NCBI GenBank assembly: GCA_012103475.1
Contig: WLWS01000001.1
Location: forward strand, 641,881-705,880
Direction: 5' to 3'
From: Gammaproteobacteria bacterium
GTDB taxonomy: Bacteria; Pseudomonadota; Gammaproteobacteria; Eutrophobiales; Eutrophobiaceae
Length of the DNA: 64,000 nt
Positions 4,401-50,724 of this stretch are shown here, one piece after another (position 1 is the first letter of the stretch; every line of letters begins with the position of its first letter). The translations under genes and the position numbers were made by a program. The notes under the pieces are model-generated. The model worked only from the letters and a program-made list of their open reading frames with translations. It searched no databases and was not told where the DNA came from.

Positions 4401-5270
4401 CTAACCGTAACGACCGGTTATATAATCTTCCGTCATTTTCTCGCCTGGCGTAGTAAAAAGGGTGTTAGTGTCATTGAATTCCACCATCTTGCCCAGATAC
4501 ATGTAGGCCGTATAGTCCGAGACACGGGCAGCCTGCTGCATATTATGAGTAACAATGACGATTGTATAATCGTGCCTTAATTCATATATCAATTCTTCGA
4601 TTTTCAGAGTCGAAATCGGATCCAGGGCTGAAGCAGGCTCATCAAGCAGTAACACTTCCGGCTCAATGGCAATCGCTCTGGCGATAACCAGTCTTTGTTG
4701 CTGACCACCGGACAGACCCATGGCGTTATCATCCAGTCGATCTTTTACTTCATCCCACAAGGCGGCACCTTGCAGGGATTTTTCCACAGCTTCGGCAAGT
4801 ACACGCCTGTCTTTCACACCCTGAATTCTGAGACCATAGGCTACGTTCTCAAAAATTGATTTTGGGAATGGATTGGGTTTTTGAAATACCATTCCAACCC
4901 GCCTGCGCAATTCAGCAACATTTATGTCCTTAGCGTAAATATCATGATCATAAAGACTCATCTTGCCATCGATTCGAACAATATCAATTAAGTCGTTCAT
5001 TCTGTTCATGCAGCGTAACAAAGTTGATTTGCCACAACCGCTGGGGCCGATAAAAGCCGTTACTCTTTTCTCCGGGATAGTAAGGTTAATATTTTCCAGA
5101 GCCTGCTTTTCGGCATAGTAAAGATTGAAGTCCTCTACCGTAATACAGGTCTGTTCCTTTTCCAGACTCAGGTGACTCGAGGACCGCGTTAATGAACTCA
5201 TGTCAATGGCATGTGTTTTGGCAGCACTCGACTCTGCATCATTCAATTGTTCTTCAATAGTATCGGACAT
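4401..5270 (-). CDS. pstB: Possible independently initiated PstB ATPase module inside the fused ORF
   Basis: In-frame ATGs occur at 5288 and 5270. AGGA lies 8 nt upstream of the ATG at 5270. From this Met the protein aligns in length with free-standing PstB proteins. Confidence 0.4.
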
Positions 5271-35225: not shown

Positions 35226-37282
35226 ATGACCAAGCCACAAATCGATAAAAGCGCACTACCGCAGTTCAGTACAATCCAGCCCGCACAAATTCAGGCAAGC
35301 ATAGAAAAGCTAATCTGTGACAACAAGGCTTCGATGGAAAAGTTGCTGGCCGCCAACACAGTCTACAACTGGGAAAATTTGATCCAGGTACTTGAAAATG
35401 ACGCAGACCGACTTAGTCGTGCCTGGTCGCCAATCAATCATCTGCACTCGGTCGCGGATAACGACGAGCTGCGTGAGGCTTATAACGCCTGTCTGCCACC
35501 ACTCACAGAATACGGCACTGAACTGGGACAACATGAAGGGCTGTTCCGTGCCTATCAGCAAATCAGAGATAGCGCCGGCTTCCAGAAACTGCATGCGGCT
35601 CAGCAAAAATCGATCGAAAATGAACTGCGCGACTTTCACTTATCCGGAATTGGTCTCGCAAACGAAGAACGCGAAAGCTATCGCTCGATCAAACAAAAAC
35701 TCTCAAAACTGCAAACACGCTACGAGGAAAACCTTCTCGACGCCACTCAGGCCTGGCAGAAACTTATCGTCGATCAGAAACAGCTGGCAGGGATGCCAGA
35801 GTCGGCTATCGCATTAGCCGCACAAACAGCAGAGAGAGAGAGAAGCAGACAGGCTGGTTGTTAACACTGGATTTCCCCAGCTATCTGCCGGTTATGCAAT
35901 ACGCAGATAATCGCGAATTGCGCGAAGAAATGTATAAGGCTTACGTTACCCGCGCCTCCGAGCAGGCAGCGAATGCGGAGCAGTGGGACAATGGTGAGTT
36001 GATGGTAGAGATTGTTGAGCTACGCCAACAGCTTGCTCAATTACTTGATTTCGACTCTTATGCCGATTATTCATTGGCCAGAAAAATGGCCTCAACACCA
36101 GCGGAAGTTCTTGGCTTCCTTGAGGATCTGGCTGAACGTTCAAAACCAGTCGCTGAAACCGAACTCGCTGAACTGCAACAGTTTGCCCGCGAGCAGTTTC
36201 AAGTTGATGAGCTACAGGCCTGGGATCTTGGCTACTATTCAGAAAAACTACGCGTACATAAATTTGATATTTCTCAGGAGGAGCTGCGCCCCTATTTTCC
36301 CGCCCCAAAAGTTATCGAGGGAATGTTCGCAGTCGTTAAACGTCTTTACGGTATCACCATCAAGGAAGTGGAAGGCATCGACAGTTGGCACGAAGATGTG
36401 CGTTTTTATGAGATTCAGGACGACAGCGGACAACTGCGTGGTAGTTTCTATCTTGATCTCTATGCCCGCCCGCAAAAGCGGGGCGGAGCCTGGATGGATG
36501 AATGCCTGGTGCGCAGATTCGCTGGCAAAAAGTTGCAGACTCCGGTTGCCTATCTGACCTGTAACTTCAGCCCACCAATAGGAAGCGATCCTTCACTGCT
36601 GACACACGATGAAGTAATCACACTATTCCACGAGTTTGGCCATGGTTTACATCATATGTTAACGCTGGTCGATTACCCGGAGGTGTCCGGCATCAATGGG
36701 GTTGCCTGGGATGCAGTCGAGTTACCCAGCCAGTTTATGGAAAACTGGTGCTGGGAACGTGACTCCATTGCCCTTATTTCAGGTCATTATGAAAGTGGCG
36801 TCCCTTTGCCTGATGAGCTTTATGAGAAGATGTTAAAGGCCCGAACCTTTCATTCCGGCATGCAGATGGTCAGACAACTCGAGTTTTCCTTGTTTGATTT
36901 CCGTCTTCACCATAAACAGAAGGTTTCGAACACAGCTGAGATTCAGGCTTTATTGAATCAGGTTCGTGAGCAGGTGGCTGTCGTCCTCCTACCCGAATAC
37001 AATCGATTTCAGCACAGTTTTTCGCATATTTTCGCCGGCGGCTACGCAGCTGGTTATTATAGTTACAAATGGGCCGAAGTATTATCCGCTGATGCCTTTT
37101 CTAAATTCGAAGAAAACGGTATCTTTGACAGAAAAACAGGGGAACAATTTTTGAACTCGATTCTGGAACAGGGTGGATCGCGCGAACCAATGGAATTATT
37201 CATCGAGTTCAGAGGTCGCAAACCTTCTATCGACGCACTCTTGCGTCATTCAGGGATTCTTCCTGAAGAGGCCGCTGCCTGA
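35226..37282 (+). pseudogene. prlC: Oligopeptidase A, interrupted by a frameshift in an (AG)6 tract
   Basis: ORFs 35226-35864 and 35858-37282 together are collinear with E. coli PrlC. The zinc motif HEFGHGLHH is in the second ORF. The frames switch inside AGAGAGAGAGAG (35831-35842). Confidence 0.85.
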
Positions 37283-38148: not shown

Positions 38149-38352
38149 ATGAAGGCAGATACACATCCGACTTACACTGATACTTCAGTCACCTGCAGCT
38201 GCGGAAACGTTTTTTCGACGCGTTCGACTCTGGAAGACAACGATCTCCATATCGATGTCTGTTCACAGTGCCATCCTTTTTACACCGGCAAACAGAAAAT
38301 GCTGGATACCGCCGGTCGGGTTGATAAATTTCGCCGTAAATACGGCATGTAA
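38149..38352 (+). CDS. rpmE: 50S ribosomal protein L31 (zinc-binding type)
   Basis: 67 aa. MKADTHPTY..., a CSCG...[12 protein letters not shown] cysteine pair and the ending RFRRKYG-like are present. The ATG is at 38149. Confidence 0.95.
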
Positions 38353-38383
38353 AACCTTCATCGGGACCCTTCCTGATTTACTA

Positions 38384-38410
38384 AAAAGCGCCTTTATCGG
38401 GCGCTTTTTT
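38384..38410 (+). terminator. Rho-independent terminator after rpmE
   Basis: AAAAGCGCC-TTTATC-GGGCGCTTTTTT forms a GC stem followed by a T6 run. Confidence 0.75.
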
Positions 38411-38419
38411 GCTTATTAC

Positions 38420-39157
38420 TTGCTTTTATTCCTCTGCTCTTTCCCGCATACCAGTAACGCCTGCGATAGTAGGGCCTACGATCGGACCGCGTCGGCACGA
38501 CATATTATCGACGGCGACACGCTTGTCCTCAGCGATGGCAGAAAATTACGTCTGATAGGAATCGACACGCCTGAACTCGCTCGTAAAGGGCGACCGGCCG
38601 AAAGCGGTACGGATGCCGCACGCTTGTATCTGAGCAAGCTGCTAAAGGACAAAGACCGCCTGGGGCTTAAATATGGTCCCGAGCGCAAAGATCGTCATGG
38701 TCGCTTACTGGCCCATCTGTTTCTCGAAGATGGCAGTAATATACAAGCCGGATTACTGCGCGAAGGCTTGGCCTTACCACTGAATATCCCGCCTAACGTT
38801 CTTTTCAGCGACTGCTACGAGGAGCAGATGCTGCTGGCCCGGGCTGCCGGCCGGGGTCTGTGGCAACTCCCGCAGTTTCAAACGATCCGGGCCAAGTCGA
38901 TGCAGCCGGACACTCACGGCTATCGGCTTGTTCATGGTGTAGTCAGTAAACTCGGGTTCAGCGATTCAGCAGTATGGCTTAACCTGAACAAGCATCTCGC
39001 TATCCGAATCAGGCGAAAACACCTCTCATATTTAGCAGGACTGGACCTGAATAATATTATTGGTGCTGAAATTGAAGTACGCGGAGTAATTTATCAAAGG
39101 AATAAACAAATGCGTGTCAGCGTCCGTCATAAAAACGATCTAAAAATACTAAAGTAG
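38420..39157 (+). CDS. Secreted thermonuclease (SNase-like) family protein
   Basis: IIDGDTLVL...LRLIGIDTPE...DRHGRLLAHLF are staphylococcal-nuclease-fold motifs. The start is uncertain: no in-frame ATG follows the rpmE terminator, so TTG at 38420 is assumed. The ORF track starts at 38255, inside rpmE. Confidence 0.7.
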   Translation: MLLFLCSFPHTSNACDSRAYDRTASARHIIDGDTLVLSDGRKLRLIGIDTPELARKGRPAESGTDAARLYLSKLLKDKDRLGLKYGPERKDRHGRLLAHLFLEDGSNIQAGLLREGLALPLNIPPNVLFSDCYEEQMLLARAAGRGLWQLPQFQTIRAKSMQPDTHGYRLVHGVVSKLGFSDSAVWLNLNKHLAIRIRRKHLSYLAGLDLNNIIGAEIEVRGVIYQRNKQMRVSVRHKNDLKILK

Positions 39158-39258
39158 AGACAAAATTGAAGCACTTTCAGTGCATGACTTAGCCGCCCTT
39201 ATTGAGGTGTTTTCTAACATAAAAAGCTTAAGTCATTGCAATGTCGAGGAATCAAAAA

Positions 39259-39293
39259 CTATCCACAAATTCTGTGGATAAGTTTGTGGATGT
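39259..39293. promoter_or_regulatory. Cluster of three DnaA boxes
   Basis: CTATCCACA (39259-39267, 8/9 to TTATCCACA), a 5-nt spacer, TGTGGATAA (39273-39281, perfect reverse box), a 3-nt spacer, then TGTGGATGT (39285-39293, 7/9). It lies in an ORF-free AT-rich spacer. Confidence 0.55.
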
Positions 39294-39464
39294 AATGCTA
39301 ACAGAACGCTCAAATCAGCGTTTTTACTGGATATTTAACAAAACTGTCATTTTTTGTGCAATTATTATTAACCTATATTAATCAGACAGTTATACTATTT
39401 TTATAGTCTAAAACGCACCTTACTTAAGATGCGATCTGAACTTCGATCAAAAATTGGCTTTCAC

Positions 39465-39473
39465 TGTGCATAA
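39465..39473. promoter_or_regulatory. Isolated DnaA box (TTATGCACA in reverse)
   Basis: TGTGCATAA fits TGTGNATAA exactly. Two GATC sites (39432, 39444) lie just upstream of it. Confidence 0.35.
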
Positions 39474-39500
39474 AATTGTTTGTCAAGCATTTATTTTAAA

Positions 39501-39527
39501 AAACTTTTGAACAAAACCGGTATCTGT
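39501..39527 (+). promoter_or_regulatory. Candidate ECF sigmaE/AlgU-type promoter
   Basis: AAACTT (39501-39506), a 16-nt spacer, then TCTGT (39523-39527). The consensus is GAACTT-N16/17-TCTGA. Confidence 0.4.
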
Positions 39528-39533
39528 CTGTCG

Positions 39534-39656
39534 AAAACAACAGATAGCAAATTTCTCGTTCCTCCTCTAGAACGTGACAGAACCCCGGTCTCCCCAGCCG
39601 GGTAATCTTGGCCCCGGTTACCTCCCCCTTAAATTAAGCCGGGGCCTTCTTTTTTT
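39534..39656 (+). ncRNA. Predicted ~120-nt small RNA convergent with engB (Spot 42 / ErsA positional analogue)
   Basis: It is bounded by the sigmaE-type promoter and an intrinsic terminator: GGCCCCGG 39610-39617 pairs with CCGGGGCC 39639-39646, followed by TTCTTTTTTT. There is no ORF. C/U-rich anti-SD-like stretches lie at 39559-39567 and 39620-39628. Confidence 0.4.
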
Positions 39657-40248
39657 CATCGAGCATCCAGGCATCAAGTGCCTGCACAAGCTCATCAACA
39701 CCGGTTTTTTTTAATACAGAGAACAATTGCACGCTATGAGCACTGGATCCGAATTGATTCTGCGCTCGCTGCAGCGCCTTTCGGCTTGCGCCAAAGGCCA
39801 GTTTGTCCGATTTATTCAGTAATATGTGAACGGCAAGACCGGCTGATTCACACCAGGAGAGCATTTGCTCGTCAAACTCCGTCAAGCCCCGTCTAATATC
39901 CGTAATCAACACCACCCCGGCTAAACAACGCCGTGTTTGAAAATACTCGCCGAGAGTTTCAGCCCAATGCGCCTGTACTTTCTCCGGAACCTTTGCATAC
40001 CCATAACCCGGTAAATCAACCAGACGTATCTCCTCATTCACCGGAAAAAAATTGATTAGCTGGGTTCGGCCCGGTGTTTTACTGATTTTTGCCAGTCGTT
40101 TCTGCCCGGTCAGTGCATTAATGACGCTTGATTTACCGGAATTAGAGCGACCTGCAAAAGCGACTTCACGGCCGCTGTCCGGCATCAACTGCGCCAGAGT
40201 GTGGGCACTGGTTTCATAACTAGCCTGTCGATATCGATTATTGAGCAT
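39634..40248 (-). CDS. engB: Ribosome biogenesis GTP-binding protein EngB/YihA
   Basis: 204 aa. It has G1 GRSNSGKSS, G3 DLPGYG and G4 NKSD motifs. Confidence 0.93.
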   Translation of the reverse strand: MLNNRYRQASYETSAHTLAQLMPDSGREVAFAGRSNSGKSSVINALTGQKRLAKISKTPGRTQLINFFPVNEEIRLVDLPGYGYAKVPEKVQAHWAETLGEYFQTRRCLAGVVLITDIRRGLTEFDEQMLSWCESAGLAVHILLNKSDKLAFGASRKALQRAQNQFGSSAHSVQLFSVLKKTGVDELVQALDAWMLDEKKKAPA

Positions 40249-50647: not shown

Positions 50648-50724
50648 TGGCGCGCCCGACAGGAGTCGAACCTGTGACCTCTGCCTTCGGAGGGCAGCAC
50701 TCTATCCAGCTGAGCTACGGGCGC
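50648..50724 (-). tRNA. tRNA-Arg (anticodon CCG)
   Basis: Hand-folded cloverleaf. The acceptor is GCGCCCG/CGGGCGC, the anticodon stem CTGCC/GGCAG with loop CTCCGAA, and the T-loop TTCGACT. The discriminator is G and CCA is encoded. Length 77 nt. Confidence 0.95.

What the first reader, a model, noticed from the sequence alone, without database searches (positions are those of the whole stretch)
39499..39656. Candidate sigmaE-driven small RNA convergent with engB, in the position of Spot 42 / ErsA
Seen in sequence:
- AAACTT (39501-39506), 16 nt, then TCTGT (39523-39527) resembles the ECF sigmaE/AlgU promoter consensus GAACTT-N16/17-TCTGA.
- About 85 nt downstream there is an 8-bp all-GC stem (GGCCCCGG 39610-39617 / CCGGGGCC 39639-39646) followed by TTCTTTTTTT. 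This gives a ~120-nt transcript with no ORF.
- The RNA would contain two C/U-rich anti-Shine-Dalgarno-like stretches: UUCCUCCUC at 39559-39567, and ACCUCCCCC at 39620-39628 in the terminator loop.
- It also has an internal CCCGG/CCGGG hairpin.
- The terminator 3' arm and T-run overlap the last codons of engB, which is convergent.

Established knowledge, from memory:
- E. coli spf (Spot 42) lies between polA and engB/yihA.
- P. aeruginosa ErsA, which is AlgU-dependent, occupies the polA-engB spacer.
- Both sRNAs pair at ribosome-binding sites.

Inference: the neighbouring engB-cc4-dsbA-GGDEF synteny here is Pseudomonas-like, so this is probably an envelope-stress sRNA of that positional family. 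In this lineage polA is no longer the neighbour.
Basis: partly seen in the sequence, partly recalled or inferred. Interest (0 to 1): 0.7.

Follow-up and report, generated by a model that had tools for sequence, protein, structure and literature searches.

The report
SigmaE-type small RNA gene beside engB
The spacer next to the GTPase gene engB very probably encodes a ~115-nt regulatory RNA that an envelope-stress-type promoter switches on; it is a divergent relative of the Pseudomonas RNA ErsA and the beta-proteobacterial 'anti-hemB' RNA, so it is a new member of a known kind rather than something new.

Summary
The sequence features are all at the stated coordinates. Comparative data support a real, non-coding plus-strand sRNA gene at about 39540-39656, with no expression data.

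- **Conservation.** 14 distinct homologous spacers from related uncultured Gammaproteobacteria (EngB 62-85% identical) keep the same parts: an ECF/sigmaE-type promoter, three hairpins with C/U-rich loops, and a terminator with its U-run on the plus strand only.
- **Structure.** 17 of 21 base pairs show compensatory changes. No ORF is conserved.
- **Family.**
  - No Rfam family reaches its threshold: anti-hemB scores 23.4 bits, and Spot 42 and ErsA give no hit.
  - Intermediate sequences link the RNA to anti-hemB (44-51 bits).
  - A model built here finds annotated Pseudomonas ErsA at E about 1e-5 to 1e-3.
  - A sigmaE-type promoter followed by sRNA-like sequence (C-rich loops and a terminator in those inspected) lies convergent with engB in 28 of 79 distant gammaproteobacterial loci (P about 5e-16).
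- **Likely mechanism (inferred).** Under envelope stress, the C/U-rich loops pair with G-rich ribosome-binding regions of target mRNAs.
- **Kinship to Spot 42** is positional only.

Side finding: a DARS-like trio of DnaA boxes at 39259-39293.

The parts
39509..39514 (+). -35 element GAACAA of an ECF sigmaE/AlgU-type promoter, preceded by a TTT that all but one relative (L172) keep
   Evidence: GAAC is invariant in the 13 distinct relatives whose sequence covers this stretch (L109 is cut upstream of it). It is always exactly 18 nt before TC, and the 18 nt between them vary. The most distant relative, L172, has GGAACCT-N16-TCATA.
39531..39535 (+). -10 element TCGAA, read as GTCGAA with the preceding G
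   Evidence: (G)TC[G/A][A/T]A is invariant in all relatives. It matches the sigmaE consensus GTCnAA (established knowledge). Distant loci carry GGAACTTT-N16-GTCTTA or GTCAGA at the same place.
39540..39553 (+). Predicted transcription start (about 39540-39543) and single-stranded A-rich 5' leader (ACAGAUAGCAAAUU)
   Evidence: The start is inferred from the usual 5-7 nt distance downstream of a sigmaE -10 element; it has not been mapped. AAACAACAG is kept in 12 of the 15 aligned sequences. AAC-AAC-AGA fits an (ARN)n Hfq-type motif (inference).
39554..39577 (+). Stem-loop 1: stem CGUUC 39557-61 / GAACG 39570-74 plus two outer pairs; loop CUCCUCUA 39562-69
   Evidence: Fold. The stem co-varies: L109 has CGCUC/GAGCG, L172 CCGC/GCGG, L162 UCACGU/ACGUGA, and L001/L169 CAUCAGU/ACUAAUG. 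All 7 pairs show double changes in the family alignment.
39584..39602 (+). Stem-loop 2: CCCGG/CCGGG; loop UCUCCCCAG 39589-97
   Evidence: The sequence is nearly invariant within the clade. All 5 pairs show compensatory changes and 100% of cells are paired once distant members are added.
39610..39656 (+). Stem-loop 3, an intrinsic terminator: GGCCCCGGUU/AAGCCGGGGCC; loop carries ACCUCCCCC 39620-28; U-run UUCUUUUUUU 39647-56
   Evidence: The U-run follows the hairpin on the plus strand only; on the minus strand the hairpin is followed by AAGAUUACCC. U-G pairs are compatible only with the plus strand.
39634..40248 (-). engB (yihA), convergent; its last 23 nt, stop codon included, overlap the terminator
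   Evidence: Most relatives have a 197-aa EngB that stops just outside the terminator, so the overlap is specific to this lineage.

Best explanation
Positions 39509-39656 hold a self-contained gene for a trans-acting small RNA of about 115 nt, made up as follows.

- **Promoter.** An ECF sigmaE/AlgU-type promoter (-35 GAACAA 39509-14, 16-nt spacer, -10 TCGAA 39531-35).
- **Transcript.** It is predicted to start at about 39540-39543 and to end at the intrinsic terminator at 39610-39656.
- **Structure.** A short A-rich single-stranded 5' end is followed by three hairpins. Their apical loops carry C/U-rich sequences: CUCCUC, UCUCCCC and ACCUCCCCC.

The most likely mechanism has two steps.

- Envelope stress releases the ECF sigma factor, and the RNA accumulates.
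- Its C-rich loops pair with G-rich Shine-Dalgarno or nearby regions of target mRNAs and lower their translation. Xanthomonas sX13 and other C-rich-loop sRNAs work this way.

In evolutionary terms it is a divergent member of a wide engB-linked family with sigmaE-type promoters. That family includes Pseudomonas ErsA and the gammaproteobacterial relatives of the Rfam 'anti-hemB' RNA.

Shown here: conservation of the gene, promoter architecture, RNA structure, strand, and family links. Inferred: transcription, the inducing sigma factor, the targets and the direction of regulation.
For: **Conservation.**
- The whole gene is conserved in 14 distinct homologous spacers from relatives whose EngB is only 62-85% identical. 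Model R1 scores them 76-140 bits, and the window holds a single copy at 132.5 bits.

**Promoter.**
- GAAC and (G)TC[GA][AT]A are invariant and exactly 18 nt apart across a variable spacer. That is the signature of a two-part promoter.
- GAAC-N18/19-TCnnA occurs on the convergent strand within 500 nt of engB in 28 of 79 distant loci. The opposite strand has it in 1 of 79, and other 540-nt windows of the same loci in 5.5% (P = 5e-16).

**Structure.**
- 92.4% of cells are paired, against 54-58% when partners are slid by 1.
- 17 of 21 pairs show double changes, and 0 of 500 shuffles reach the observed values.
- The SL1 stem is replaced by unrelated complementary sequences in L001/L169 and changes in register in L109, L162 and L172.

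**Strand.**
- The U-run and the G-U pairs fit the plus strand only. Fold z-score is -3.41 on plus and -1.49 on minus.

**Non-coding.**
- Indels shift the frame between relatives, stops occur in all frames, and the RNA has no ATG.

**Family links.**
- The window scores 23.4 bits against anti-hemB RF02837 (E = 0.0034).
- Intermediates L076, L025, L064 and L011 score 50.6, 48.6, 44.2 and 35.0 bits against anti-hemB. L064 matches R1 at 48.5 bits (E = 5e-9).
- Model R2 finds the two loci Rfam annotates as ErsA at 32.5 and 24.8 bits (E = 7e-6 and 1e-3). It finds 27 of 79 loci at the engB-convergent position at E < 0.01.

**Mechanistic analogy.**
- sX13 is 115 nt, has three hairpins with CCCC/CCCCC loops, and needs those loops for activity (PMC3771888).
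Against: - There are no expression data of any kind: no mapped start, no Northern blot, no metatranscriptome.
- The organism is an uncultured MAG. No rpoE gene lies in the window, so the cognate sigma factor is assumed.
- The window's -35 element (GAACAA) lacks the TT of the GGAACTT consensus, and the motif is not significant in a single sequence.
- Within the close clade the SL2 and SL3 stems never vary. Their covariation therefore rests on distant members in an alignment fitted to the model, which favours the structure.
- No Rfam family reaches its gathering score.
- ErsA acts through a U-rich single-stranded domain that is missing here, so the mode of action cannot simply be copied from ErsA.
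- Target prediction could not be done on a 64-kb window. A naive duplex scan was uninformative.
- The RNA lies next to a conserved DNA-level element (the DARS-like block), so part of the conservation upstream of the promoter may have nothing to do with the RNA.
Confidence: 0.75

Rival explanations
1. The GC-rich hairpin is only the transcription terminator (or 3'-end stabiliser) of the convergent engB gene, and no independent plus-strand RNA exists.
For: The hairpin overlaps the engB stop codon. Its stem is a near-palindrome, so it also forms in the engB mRNA.
Against: - The U-run follows the hairpin on the plus strand only; on the minus strand it is followed by AAGAUUACCC.
- In most relatives engB ends outside the hairpin.
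- This reading does not explain two further conserved, co-varying hairpins and a conserved two-part promoter upstream on the plus strand.
- The G-U pairs fit only the plus strand.
Confidence: 0.05
2. The RNA is the 3' part of a longer transcript that starts upstream. One candidate start is the sigma54-like -24/-12 element TTGGC-N8-TGCAT at 39454-39471, which would give a transcript of about 175 nt. Other starts inside the conserved upstream block are possible. The sigmaE-like motif would then be incidental.
For: - TGGC-N8-TGCA has exact sigma54 spacing and is identical in the window, L001, L081 and L169.
- The block has a sigma54-like layout: an upstream palindrome, an IHF-like site at 39380-39392, then -24/-12.
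- The stretch from 39472 to 39508 is also fairly well conserved.
Against: - The essential GG at -24 is lost in L085 (CCCC), L159 (TCGC), L163 (AGCC), L165 (CCGC) and L172 (no match). All of these keep the RNA and the GAAC-N18-TC promoter.
- The upstream palindrome is a perfect trio of DnaA boxes in DARS geometry, not a known enhancer site.
- Distant family members carry the sigmaE-type promoter directly in front of the RNA.
Confidence: 0.08
3. The region acts in cis or at the DNA level rather than as a trans-acting riboregulator. Either it is an antisense or convergent-transcription control of engB, or it is simply the distal part of the neighbouring DARS-like replication-control element.
For: - The sRNA terminator is complementary to the last 23 nt of engB, stop codon included, in this genome.
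- The whole 450-bp spacer is conserved as one block, and the DnaA-box trio sits about 250 bp upstream.
Against: - The overlap with engB is not conserved; EngB is 197 aa in most relatives.
- Compensatory base-pair changes and G-U pairs point to selection on an RNA fold.
- Distant relatives, ErsA included, have the RNA without any DARS-like trio within 4 kb. ErsA is an established trans-acting sRNA (PMC8575079).
Confidence: 0.1
4. It encodes a small protein. The candidates are the 41-codon TTG ORF at 39480-39605 and the 46-codon GTG ORF at 39574-39714.
For: Both ORFs exist. E. coli Spot 42 is now annotated as dual-function, encoding SpfP.
Against: - There is no ATG in the RNA.
- Indels that are not multiples of three move the conserved segment between reading frames in different relatives.
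- Stops interrupt every frame in several relatives.
- Substitutions follow base-pairing, not codon, patterns.
Confidence: 0.02

Closest known systems
ErsA / Pseudomon-1 (Rfam RF01719), the AlgU (sigma22)-dependent sRNA of Pseudomonas
   Same: - It lies convergent with engB directly downstream of it, and has three hairpins ending in a terminator whose loop is C-rich (CCUCCCCUCCCC in L078).
- It has an ECF sigmaE-type promoter: GGAACTT-N17-GTCAGA in L078 and GGAACTA-N16-GTCACA in L073.
- My family model R2 finds both Rfam-annotated ErsA loci, which were not in its seed, at 32.5 and 24.8 bits.
   Different: - The window gives no RF01719 hit at E <= 10.
- The 34-nt U-rich unstructured domain II, through which ErsA pairs with anr (predicted; PMC8575079), is absent. 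The SL1-SL2 linker here is about 6-9 nt.
- polA is not the other neighbour.
- ErsA is about 130 nt, against about 115 nt here.
anti-hemB / Burkholderia RNA 7 (Rfam RF02837; ncS04 of B. cenocepacia)
   Same: - It is the best Rfam match (23.4 bits, E = 0.0034), aligned end to end over three hairpins, with a CUCCUC-type loop in SL1 and a terminator.
- Gammaproteobacterial intermediates at the same engB-convergent place score 35-51 bits against it. The best of them, L064, matches my window-clade model R1 at 48.5 bits; L025, L076 and L011 match it more weakly, at 31.5, 20.9 and 19.4 bits.
- It is a candidate non-coding RNA with a terminator, and it is expressed in biofilms (PMC1950547, PMC5688073).
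   Different: - The score is below the gathering threshold of 49.5 bits.
- The family was described for beta-proteobacteria, upstream of hemB. No function or promoter type is established for it.
- Whether its beta-proteobacterial loci also adjoin engB was not checked here.
sX13 of Xanthomonas (PMC3771888)
   Same: - It has the same size (115 nt) and an unstructured 5' end followed by three stable hairpins.
- Each hairpin has a C-rich apical loop (CCCC, CCCC, CCCCC), and activity requires those loops.
- It accumulates under stress.
- It sits at the polA/engB-type locus that also hosts Spot 42.
   Different: - No sequence or covariance-model similarity was detected.
- sX13 lies downstream of polA and next to a hypothetical gene.
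- It is reported to be Hfq-independent and constitutively expressed, and no sigmaE promoter is reported.
- It is restricted to Xanthomonadaceae.
Spot 42 (spf, Rfam RF00021)
   Same: A ~110-nt sRNA gene convergent with engB/yihA, immediately downstream of it.
   Different: - Rfam gives no hit.
- R2 scores E. coli spf at only 17.8 bits, through the terminator, and skips 75 nt in the middle.
- Spot 42 is CRP-repressed rather than sigmaE-dependent (PMC3771888 cites this).
- It pairs through single-stranded regions, and it now has an annotated small ORF, spfP.
Other C-rich-loop sRNAs that pair with ribosome-binding sites: Betaproteobacteria toxic sRNA RF02278, alpha-r14/CcsR 'cuckoo' RNAs RF02344, RsaE/RoxS
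   Same: - They carry CCUCC(C)-type motifs in hairpin loops that mimic the 3' end of 16S rRNA.
- Covariance-model hits are weak: RF02278 at 16.6 bits in the window, and ar14 at 30-35 bits in L064 and L048.
   Different: - All scores are far below threshold.
- Their genomic contexts and regulators differ.
- The similarity may reflect convergence on a shared motif.

Membership tests
ErsA / Pseudomon-1 (RF01719) | Covariance-model score at or above the gathering score (50 bits) | tested here: not met
   No RF01719 hit in 39150-39750 even at E <= 10. The positive controls L078 and L073 score 76.4 and 74.8 bits.
ErsA / Pseudomon-1 (RF01719) | AlgU/sigmaE-type promoter (GAACTT-N16/17-TCTGA) | tested here: met
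   GAACAA-N16-TCGAA at 39509-39535. GAAC and TC and their spacing are invariant in all relatives that cover the site. This is sequence evidence only; dependence on the sigma factor was not tested.
ErsA / Pseudomon-1 (RF01719) | Location in the polA-engB spacer, convergent with engB | tested here: inconclusive
   Convergent with engB: yes. The other neighbour is an SNase-family gene (rpmE in L001, L169 and L172). No polA among the window's ORFs of at least 550 aa.
ErsA / Pseudomon-1 (RF01719) | [quoted passage not shown] | tested here: not met
   The linker between SL1 and SL2 is ACAGAA (39578-39583), or GUGACAGAA counting from the core stem, and it is not U-rich.
ErsA / Pseudomon-1 (RF01719) | Hfq-dependent trans regulation (algC, oprD, amrZ, anr) | not testable with these tools
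   Needs experiments, or at least the complete genome.
anti-hemB (RF02837) | Covariance-model score at or above the gathering score (49.5 bits) | tested here: not met
   23.4 bits, E = 0.0034, full-length alignment over model positions 1-81. The related loci L076, L025 and L064 score 50.6, 48.6 and 44.2 bits.
anti-hemB (RF02837) | Three hairpins, the first with a CUCCUCCC-type loop and the last a terminator | tested here: met
anti-hemB (RF02837) | Position upstream of, and antisense to, hemB in beta-proteobacteria | not tested
   hemB was not searched for in the window. The immediate neighbours are an SNase-family gene and engB.
Spot 42 (RF00021) | Covariance-model match | tested here: not met
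   No hit at E <= 10. In the reverse test, R2 scores E. coli spf at 17.8 bits through the terminator only.
Spot 42 (RF00021) | Position between polA and engB | tested here: inconclusive
   The engB side matches; polA is absent.
sX13 | About 115 nt, unstructured 5' end, three hairpins with 4C/5C apical loops | tested here: met
   Loops CUCCUCUA, UCUCCCCAG and ...ACCUCCCCC.... This is a resemblance in architecture only.
sX13 | Sequence homology; location downstream of polA; Xanthomonadaceae | tested here: not met
   No Rfam hit of that kind at E <= 10. No polA. The organism is an unclassified gammaproteobacterial MAG.
DARS (DnaA-reactivating sequence), for the neighbouring element at 39259-39293 | Core of three 9-bp DnaA boxes: box I, a 5-bp spacer, oppositely oriented box II, a 3-bp spacer, box III in the orientation of box II | tested here: met
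   CTATCCACA-aattc-TGTGGATAA-gtt-TGTGGATGT. The same regular expression recovers E. coli DARS1 (TTATCCACT-attcc-TGTGGATAA-cca-TGTGTATTA) and DARS2 (TTATTCACC-ttttc-TGTGGATAG-agt-TGTGAAGAA). PMC6868365 confirms the geometry.
DARS (DnaA-reactivating sequence), for the neighbouring element at 39259-39293 | Promotes ADP release from ADP-DnaA; for the DARS2 type, requires IHF and Fis sites | not testable with these tools
   One IHF-consensus site lies at 39380-39392. Activity needs biochemistry.

The most novel reading that the evidence does not exclude
The most novel reading has two parts.

1. ErsA (Pseudomonas), anti-hemB (beta-proteobacteria and some Chromatiales) and this clade's RNA are one ancient family. 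Its members are engB-anchored, sigmaE-controlled sRNAs with C-rich loops, spanning gamma- and beta-proteobacteria. Rfam currently lists them as unrelated families with no clan. Spot 42 and sX13 would be replaced or strongly diverged occupants of the same locus.

2. In this lineage the sRNA gene has additionally become fused, in one conserved 450-bp block, to a DARS-type DnaA-reactivating element. That raises the possibility that envelope-stress transcription and control of replication initiation are coupled at this site.
Probability: 0.3. Interest if true: 0.6.

Novelty: new member of a known kind. Interest (0 to 1): 0.4.

Why it matters
- **For this genome.** It adds a likely envelope-stress riboregulator to an uncultured gammaproteobacterial lineage, defines its promoter, ends and structure precisely, and so makes it testable.
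- **More broadly.**
  - A sigmaE-type promoter followed by sRNA-like sequence recurs convergent with engB in about a third of distant gammaproteobacterial loci sampled.
  - These sequences bridge two Rfam families, ErsA and anti-hemB, that are not grouped in a clan.
  - Together this points to an old, position-anchored sRNA lineage. Such cases help in studying how sRNAs keep a promoter and a scaffold while their seed regions change.
- **Side finding.** The neighbouring DARS-like DnaA-box trio would extend DnaA-reactivating sequences to a lineage far from E. coli.

Tried and rejected
Rejected: no relative whose sequence covers them conserves either hexamer. The conserved motif lies 8 bp downstream.
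- **Sigma54 promoter at 39454-39471 with an upstream activator palindrome.** It looked attractive at first. I rejected it as the sRNA promoter because the -24 GG is lost in five lineages that keep the RNA, and because the 'palindrome' is a DnaA-box trio.
- **Sigma70 promoter.** The scan found only weak sites at 39032 and 39368, and none in front of the RNA.
- **RpoH-type promoter (TTGAA-N13-15-CCCCAT).** There is no conserved -10 element.
- **Replication origin.** Rejected: only three DnaA boxes, few GATC sites, and no GC-skew switch at 39 kb.
- **Metagenome DNA-pattern scan on the two loop motifs.** It returned 73 loci, of which only one (L109) was real.
- **RNAalifold on the close clade alone.** It showed no covariation in SL2 or SL3, whose stems are invariant.
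- **Naive RNA duplex scan of the sRNA against translation-start regions in the window.** It produced only artefactual long duplexes that open the GC stems, so it was uninformative.
- No hit.
- **Repeat or mobile-element explanation.** The window holds a single copy.
Full report
**1. What is in the sequence**

- AAACTT 39501-06, 16 nt, TCTGT 39523-27.
- UUCCUCCUC at 39559-67.
- A CCCGG/CCGGG hairpin at 39584-39602.
- An 8-bp all-GC stem, 39610-17 with 39639-46, whose loop holds ACCUCCCCC (39620-28).
- TTCTTTTTTT at 39647-56.
- The engB stop codon at 39634-36 on the minus strand, so the terminator overlaps the last engB codons.

Pfam confirms the neighbours: SNase (38255-39157, +), EngB (-), a di-haem cytochrome c, DsbA and a GGDEF protein. 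None of the six ORFs of at least 550 aa in the window is DNA polymerase I.

The plus-strand RNA from 39540 to 39656 folds into three hairpins. MFE is -36.4 kcal/mol, z = -3.41, and 0 of 200 shuffles fold as well. The minus strand gives z = -1.49.

**2. Known RNA families**

- Rfam at gathering thresholds finds only a tRNA in the window.
- With permissive thresholds on 39150-39750 there is no Spot 42 hit and no ErsA hit.
- The best match is anti-hemB (RF02837): 23.4 bits, E = 0.0034, against a gathering score of 49.5 bits. The alignment runs end to end through all three hairpins.

**3. Relatives**

- EngB-based searches and contig look-ups gave 14 distinct homologous spacers, one of them (L109) from a DNA-pattern scan.
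- They come from uncultured Gammaproteobacteria whose EngB is 62-85% identical to the window's.
- The non-coding spacer is far better conserved than that protein divergence would predict.

**4. The promoter**

- In every relative whose sequence covers it, GAAC (preceded by TTT in all but L172) is followed by exactly 18 variable nucleotides and then (G)TC[G/A][A/T]A.
- In the window this reads as -35 GAACAA 39509-14 and -10 TCGAA 39531-35.
- The most distant relative, L172, has GGAACCT-N16-TCATA.
- This is the ECF sigmaE/AlgU architecture, GGAACTT-N16-TCnnA (established knowledge).
Elsewhere AAACTT reads ATATTT, TAATTT, ATTATT and so on, and TCTGT reads TTTGT, CTTGT or CTGCT.
- The motif is not significant in one sequence: 4 matches against 2.2 expected. 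Its weight comes from conservation.
- Among 79 more distant engB loci, GAAC-N18/19-TCnnA lies within 500 nt downstream of engB on the convergent strand in 28. The other strand has it in 1, and control windows in 5.5% (binomial P = 5e-16).
- Typical distant forms are GGAACTTT-N16-GTCTTA, and for Pseudomonas GGAACTT-N17-GTCAGA.
- The predicted start is about 39540-43, which is an inference, giving an RNA of about 115 nt.

**5. The RNA structure**

- Within the close clade the SL2 and SL3 stems never vary.
- SL1 does vary while staying paired. It is CGUUC/GAACG in the window, CGCUC/GAGCG in L109, CCGC/GCGG in L172, UCACGU/ACGUGA in L162 and CAUCAGU/ACUAAUG in L001/L169.
- I built a covariance model, R1, from 15 sequences. 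It finds exactly one copy in the window, at 132.5 bits.
- R1 also gives weaker hits in about 25 distant loci, nearly all immediately downstream of engB on the opposite strand.
- In the 22-sequence model-guided alignment, 92.4% of cells are paired, against 54-58% when the partners are slid by one column.
- 17 of 21 pairs have changes on both sides, and 0 of 500 shuffles reach the observed values.
- Caveat: this alignment was fitted to the model, which favours the structure.
- The G-U pairs and the U-run fix the strand as plus.
- No reading frame is conserved.

**6. Family relations**

- Rfam calls the corresponding element Pseudomon-1/ErsA in the two Pseudomonas loci (76.4 and 74.8 bits) and anti-hemB in an Ectothiorhodospira locus (50.6 bits).
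- Other intermediates score 48.6 (L025), 44.2 (L064) and 35.0 (L011) bits against anti-hemB. L006 and L064 score 33.4 and 29.2 bits against ErsA.
- L064 matches the window-clade model at 48.5 bits, E = 5e-9.
- A second model, R2, was built from the 22-sequence alignment with no Pseudomonas sequence in it.
- R2 finds the two ErsA loci at 32.5 and 24.8 bits (E = 7e-6 and 1e-3). The alignment covers all three helices.
- R2 also places 27 of 79 distant loci at the engB-convergent position at E < 0.01.
- E. coli Spot 42 scores only 17.8 bits, through its terminator, with the middle skipped.
- The window's RNA is therefore a divergent member of a wide engB-linked family with sigmaE-type promoters and C-rich loops that includes ErsA. 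It fails the formal Rfam thresholds of ErsA, anti-hemB and Spot 42.
- It also lacks ErsA's 34-nt U-rich pairing domain (PMC8575079).

**7. Mechanism**

- Shown: gene conservation, promoter type, structure and strand.
- Inferred: induction by an ECF sigmaE-like factor, and pairing of the loops with G-rich Shine-Dalgarno regions. The loops CUCCUC, UCUCCCC and ACCUCCCCC mimic the CCUCC at the 3' end of 16S rRNA.
- The closest working analogue is Xanthomonas sX13. It is 115 nt, has three hairpins with CCCC/CCCC/CCCCC loops that are needed for activity, and lies at the polA locus (PMC3771888).
- The A-rich 5' end (AAC-AAC-AGA) and the 3' U-tail are compatible with Hfq binding, which is also an inference.
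- Targets cannot be predicted from 64 kb, and a naive duplex scan was uninformative.

**8. Rivals**

- *Terminator of engB only.* The U-run is on the wrong strand for this, and it leaves the promoter and the two extra co-varying hairpins unexplained.
- *Longer sigma54-driven transcript from TTGGC-N8-TGCAT (39454-71).* The -24 GG is lost in L085, L159, L163, L165 and L172, all of which keep the RNA.
- *Small protein.* No frame is conserved.
- *Purely cis or DNA-level role.* The overlap with engB is specific to this lineage, and distant family members lack the DARS-like block.

**9. Neighbouring element (outside the finding)**

- Positions 39259-39293 read CTATCCACA-aattc-TGTGGATAA-gtt-TGTGGATGT.
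- This is three DnaA boxes in exactly the geometry of the E. coli DARS1 and DARS2 cores: box I, 5 bp, inverted box II, 3 bp, box III (PMC6868365).
- The trio is present in all 16 clade loci whose sequence reaches that far, and in none of the 79 distant loci.
- Most of the variation in box II (G, C or T in the fifth base of TGTGGATAA) falls at the degenerate N of the TTATNCACA consensus.
- Downstream of it lie a co-varying hairpin with a T-run (about 39310-39335), an IHF-consensus site (39380-92) and further conserved sequence up to the sRNA promoter.

**10. Verdict**

It is wrong in the promoter coordinates and in the implied closeness to Spot 42.
- Novelty: a new member of a known kind.
- Interest is moderate. 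It comes mainly from the evidence that ErsA, anti-hemB and this clade form one old engB-anchored family, and from the adjacent DARS-like element.

Noticed in passing
window 39259-39293 (conserved block continues to about 39480): A trio of DnaA boxes, CTATCCACA-aattc-TGTGGATAA-gtt-TGTGGATGT, has exactly the geometry of the E. coli DARS1 and DARS2 cores (box I, 5 bp, inverted box II, 3 bp, box III). It is conserved in all 16 clade loci whose sequence reaches that far and absent near engB in 79 distant loci. Most of the variation in box II falls at the degenerate N of the DnaA-box consensus. It is probably a DnaA-reactivating (DARS-type) element.
   Followed up: partly
window 39380-39392: An IHF-consensus site, AATCAGACAGTTA, lies about 88 bp downstream of the DnaA-box trio. 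Most relatives keep it as WWTCA(A/G)NNNNTTA. Directly after it comes the conserved palindrome CTATTTTTATAG (39395-39406). This may be a DARS2-like regulatory region.
   Followed up: partly
window about 39310-39335: A small hairpin, AACGCT-caaatc-AGCGTT, is followed by TTTTT on the plus strand, between the DnaA boxes and the IHF site. Its stem co-varies among relatives: GCT/AGC becomes GCC/GGC, TGC/GCA, or AATGCT/AGCATT. Its function is unknown; it could be a terminator of a short transcript or a DNA cruciform or binding site.
   Followed up: no
window 39454-39471: A sigma54-like -24/-12 element, TTGGCTTTCACTGTGCAT, has exact GG-N10-GC spacing. It is identical in some relatives, but the GG is lost in five lineages. 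The invariant part is CTGTGCATAAA, plus TGTCAAGC about 10 bp further on (TGTCAATA in L001 and L169). The meaning is unclear.
   Followed up: partly
window 39634-39656 (engB 3' end): EngB is 204 aa here but 197 aa in most relatives. The extra C-terminal ...KKKAPA is encoded by the complement of the sRNA's U-run and the 3' arm of its terminator, as if a stop codon had been lost and translation now reads into the terminator.
   Followed up: partly
window 35226-35864 and 35858-37282: Two abutting, overlapping plus-strand ORFs (212 aa and 474 aa). The second holds a complete Peptidase_M3 domain. Together they look like an oligopeptidase A (prlC) gene split by a frameshift or a sequencing error near 35860.
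   Followed up: no
L007 (about 4627-4748 and about 240 nt further from engB), L076 (4626-4752 and 4819-4931), L063 and L058 (three hits each): Some distant genomes (Endozoicomonas, Ectothiorhodospira, Microbulbifer) carry two or three tandem or nearby copies of the sRNA. The two Endozoicomonas (L007) copies each have their own GGAACTTT-N16-GTCTTA promoter; promoters of the other copies were not examined. These are sibling sRNAs.
   Followed up: no
window 50651-50724 (-): A tRNA gene, the only Rfam hit in the window at gathering threshold (67.6 bits).
   Followed up: no
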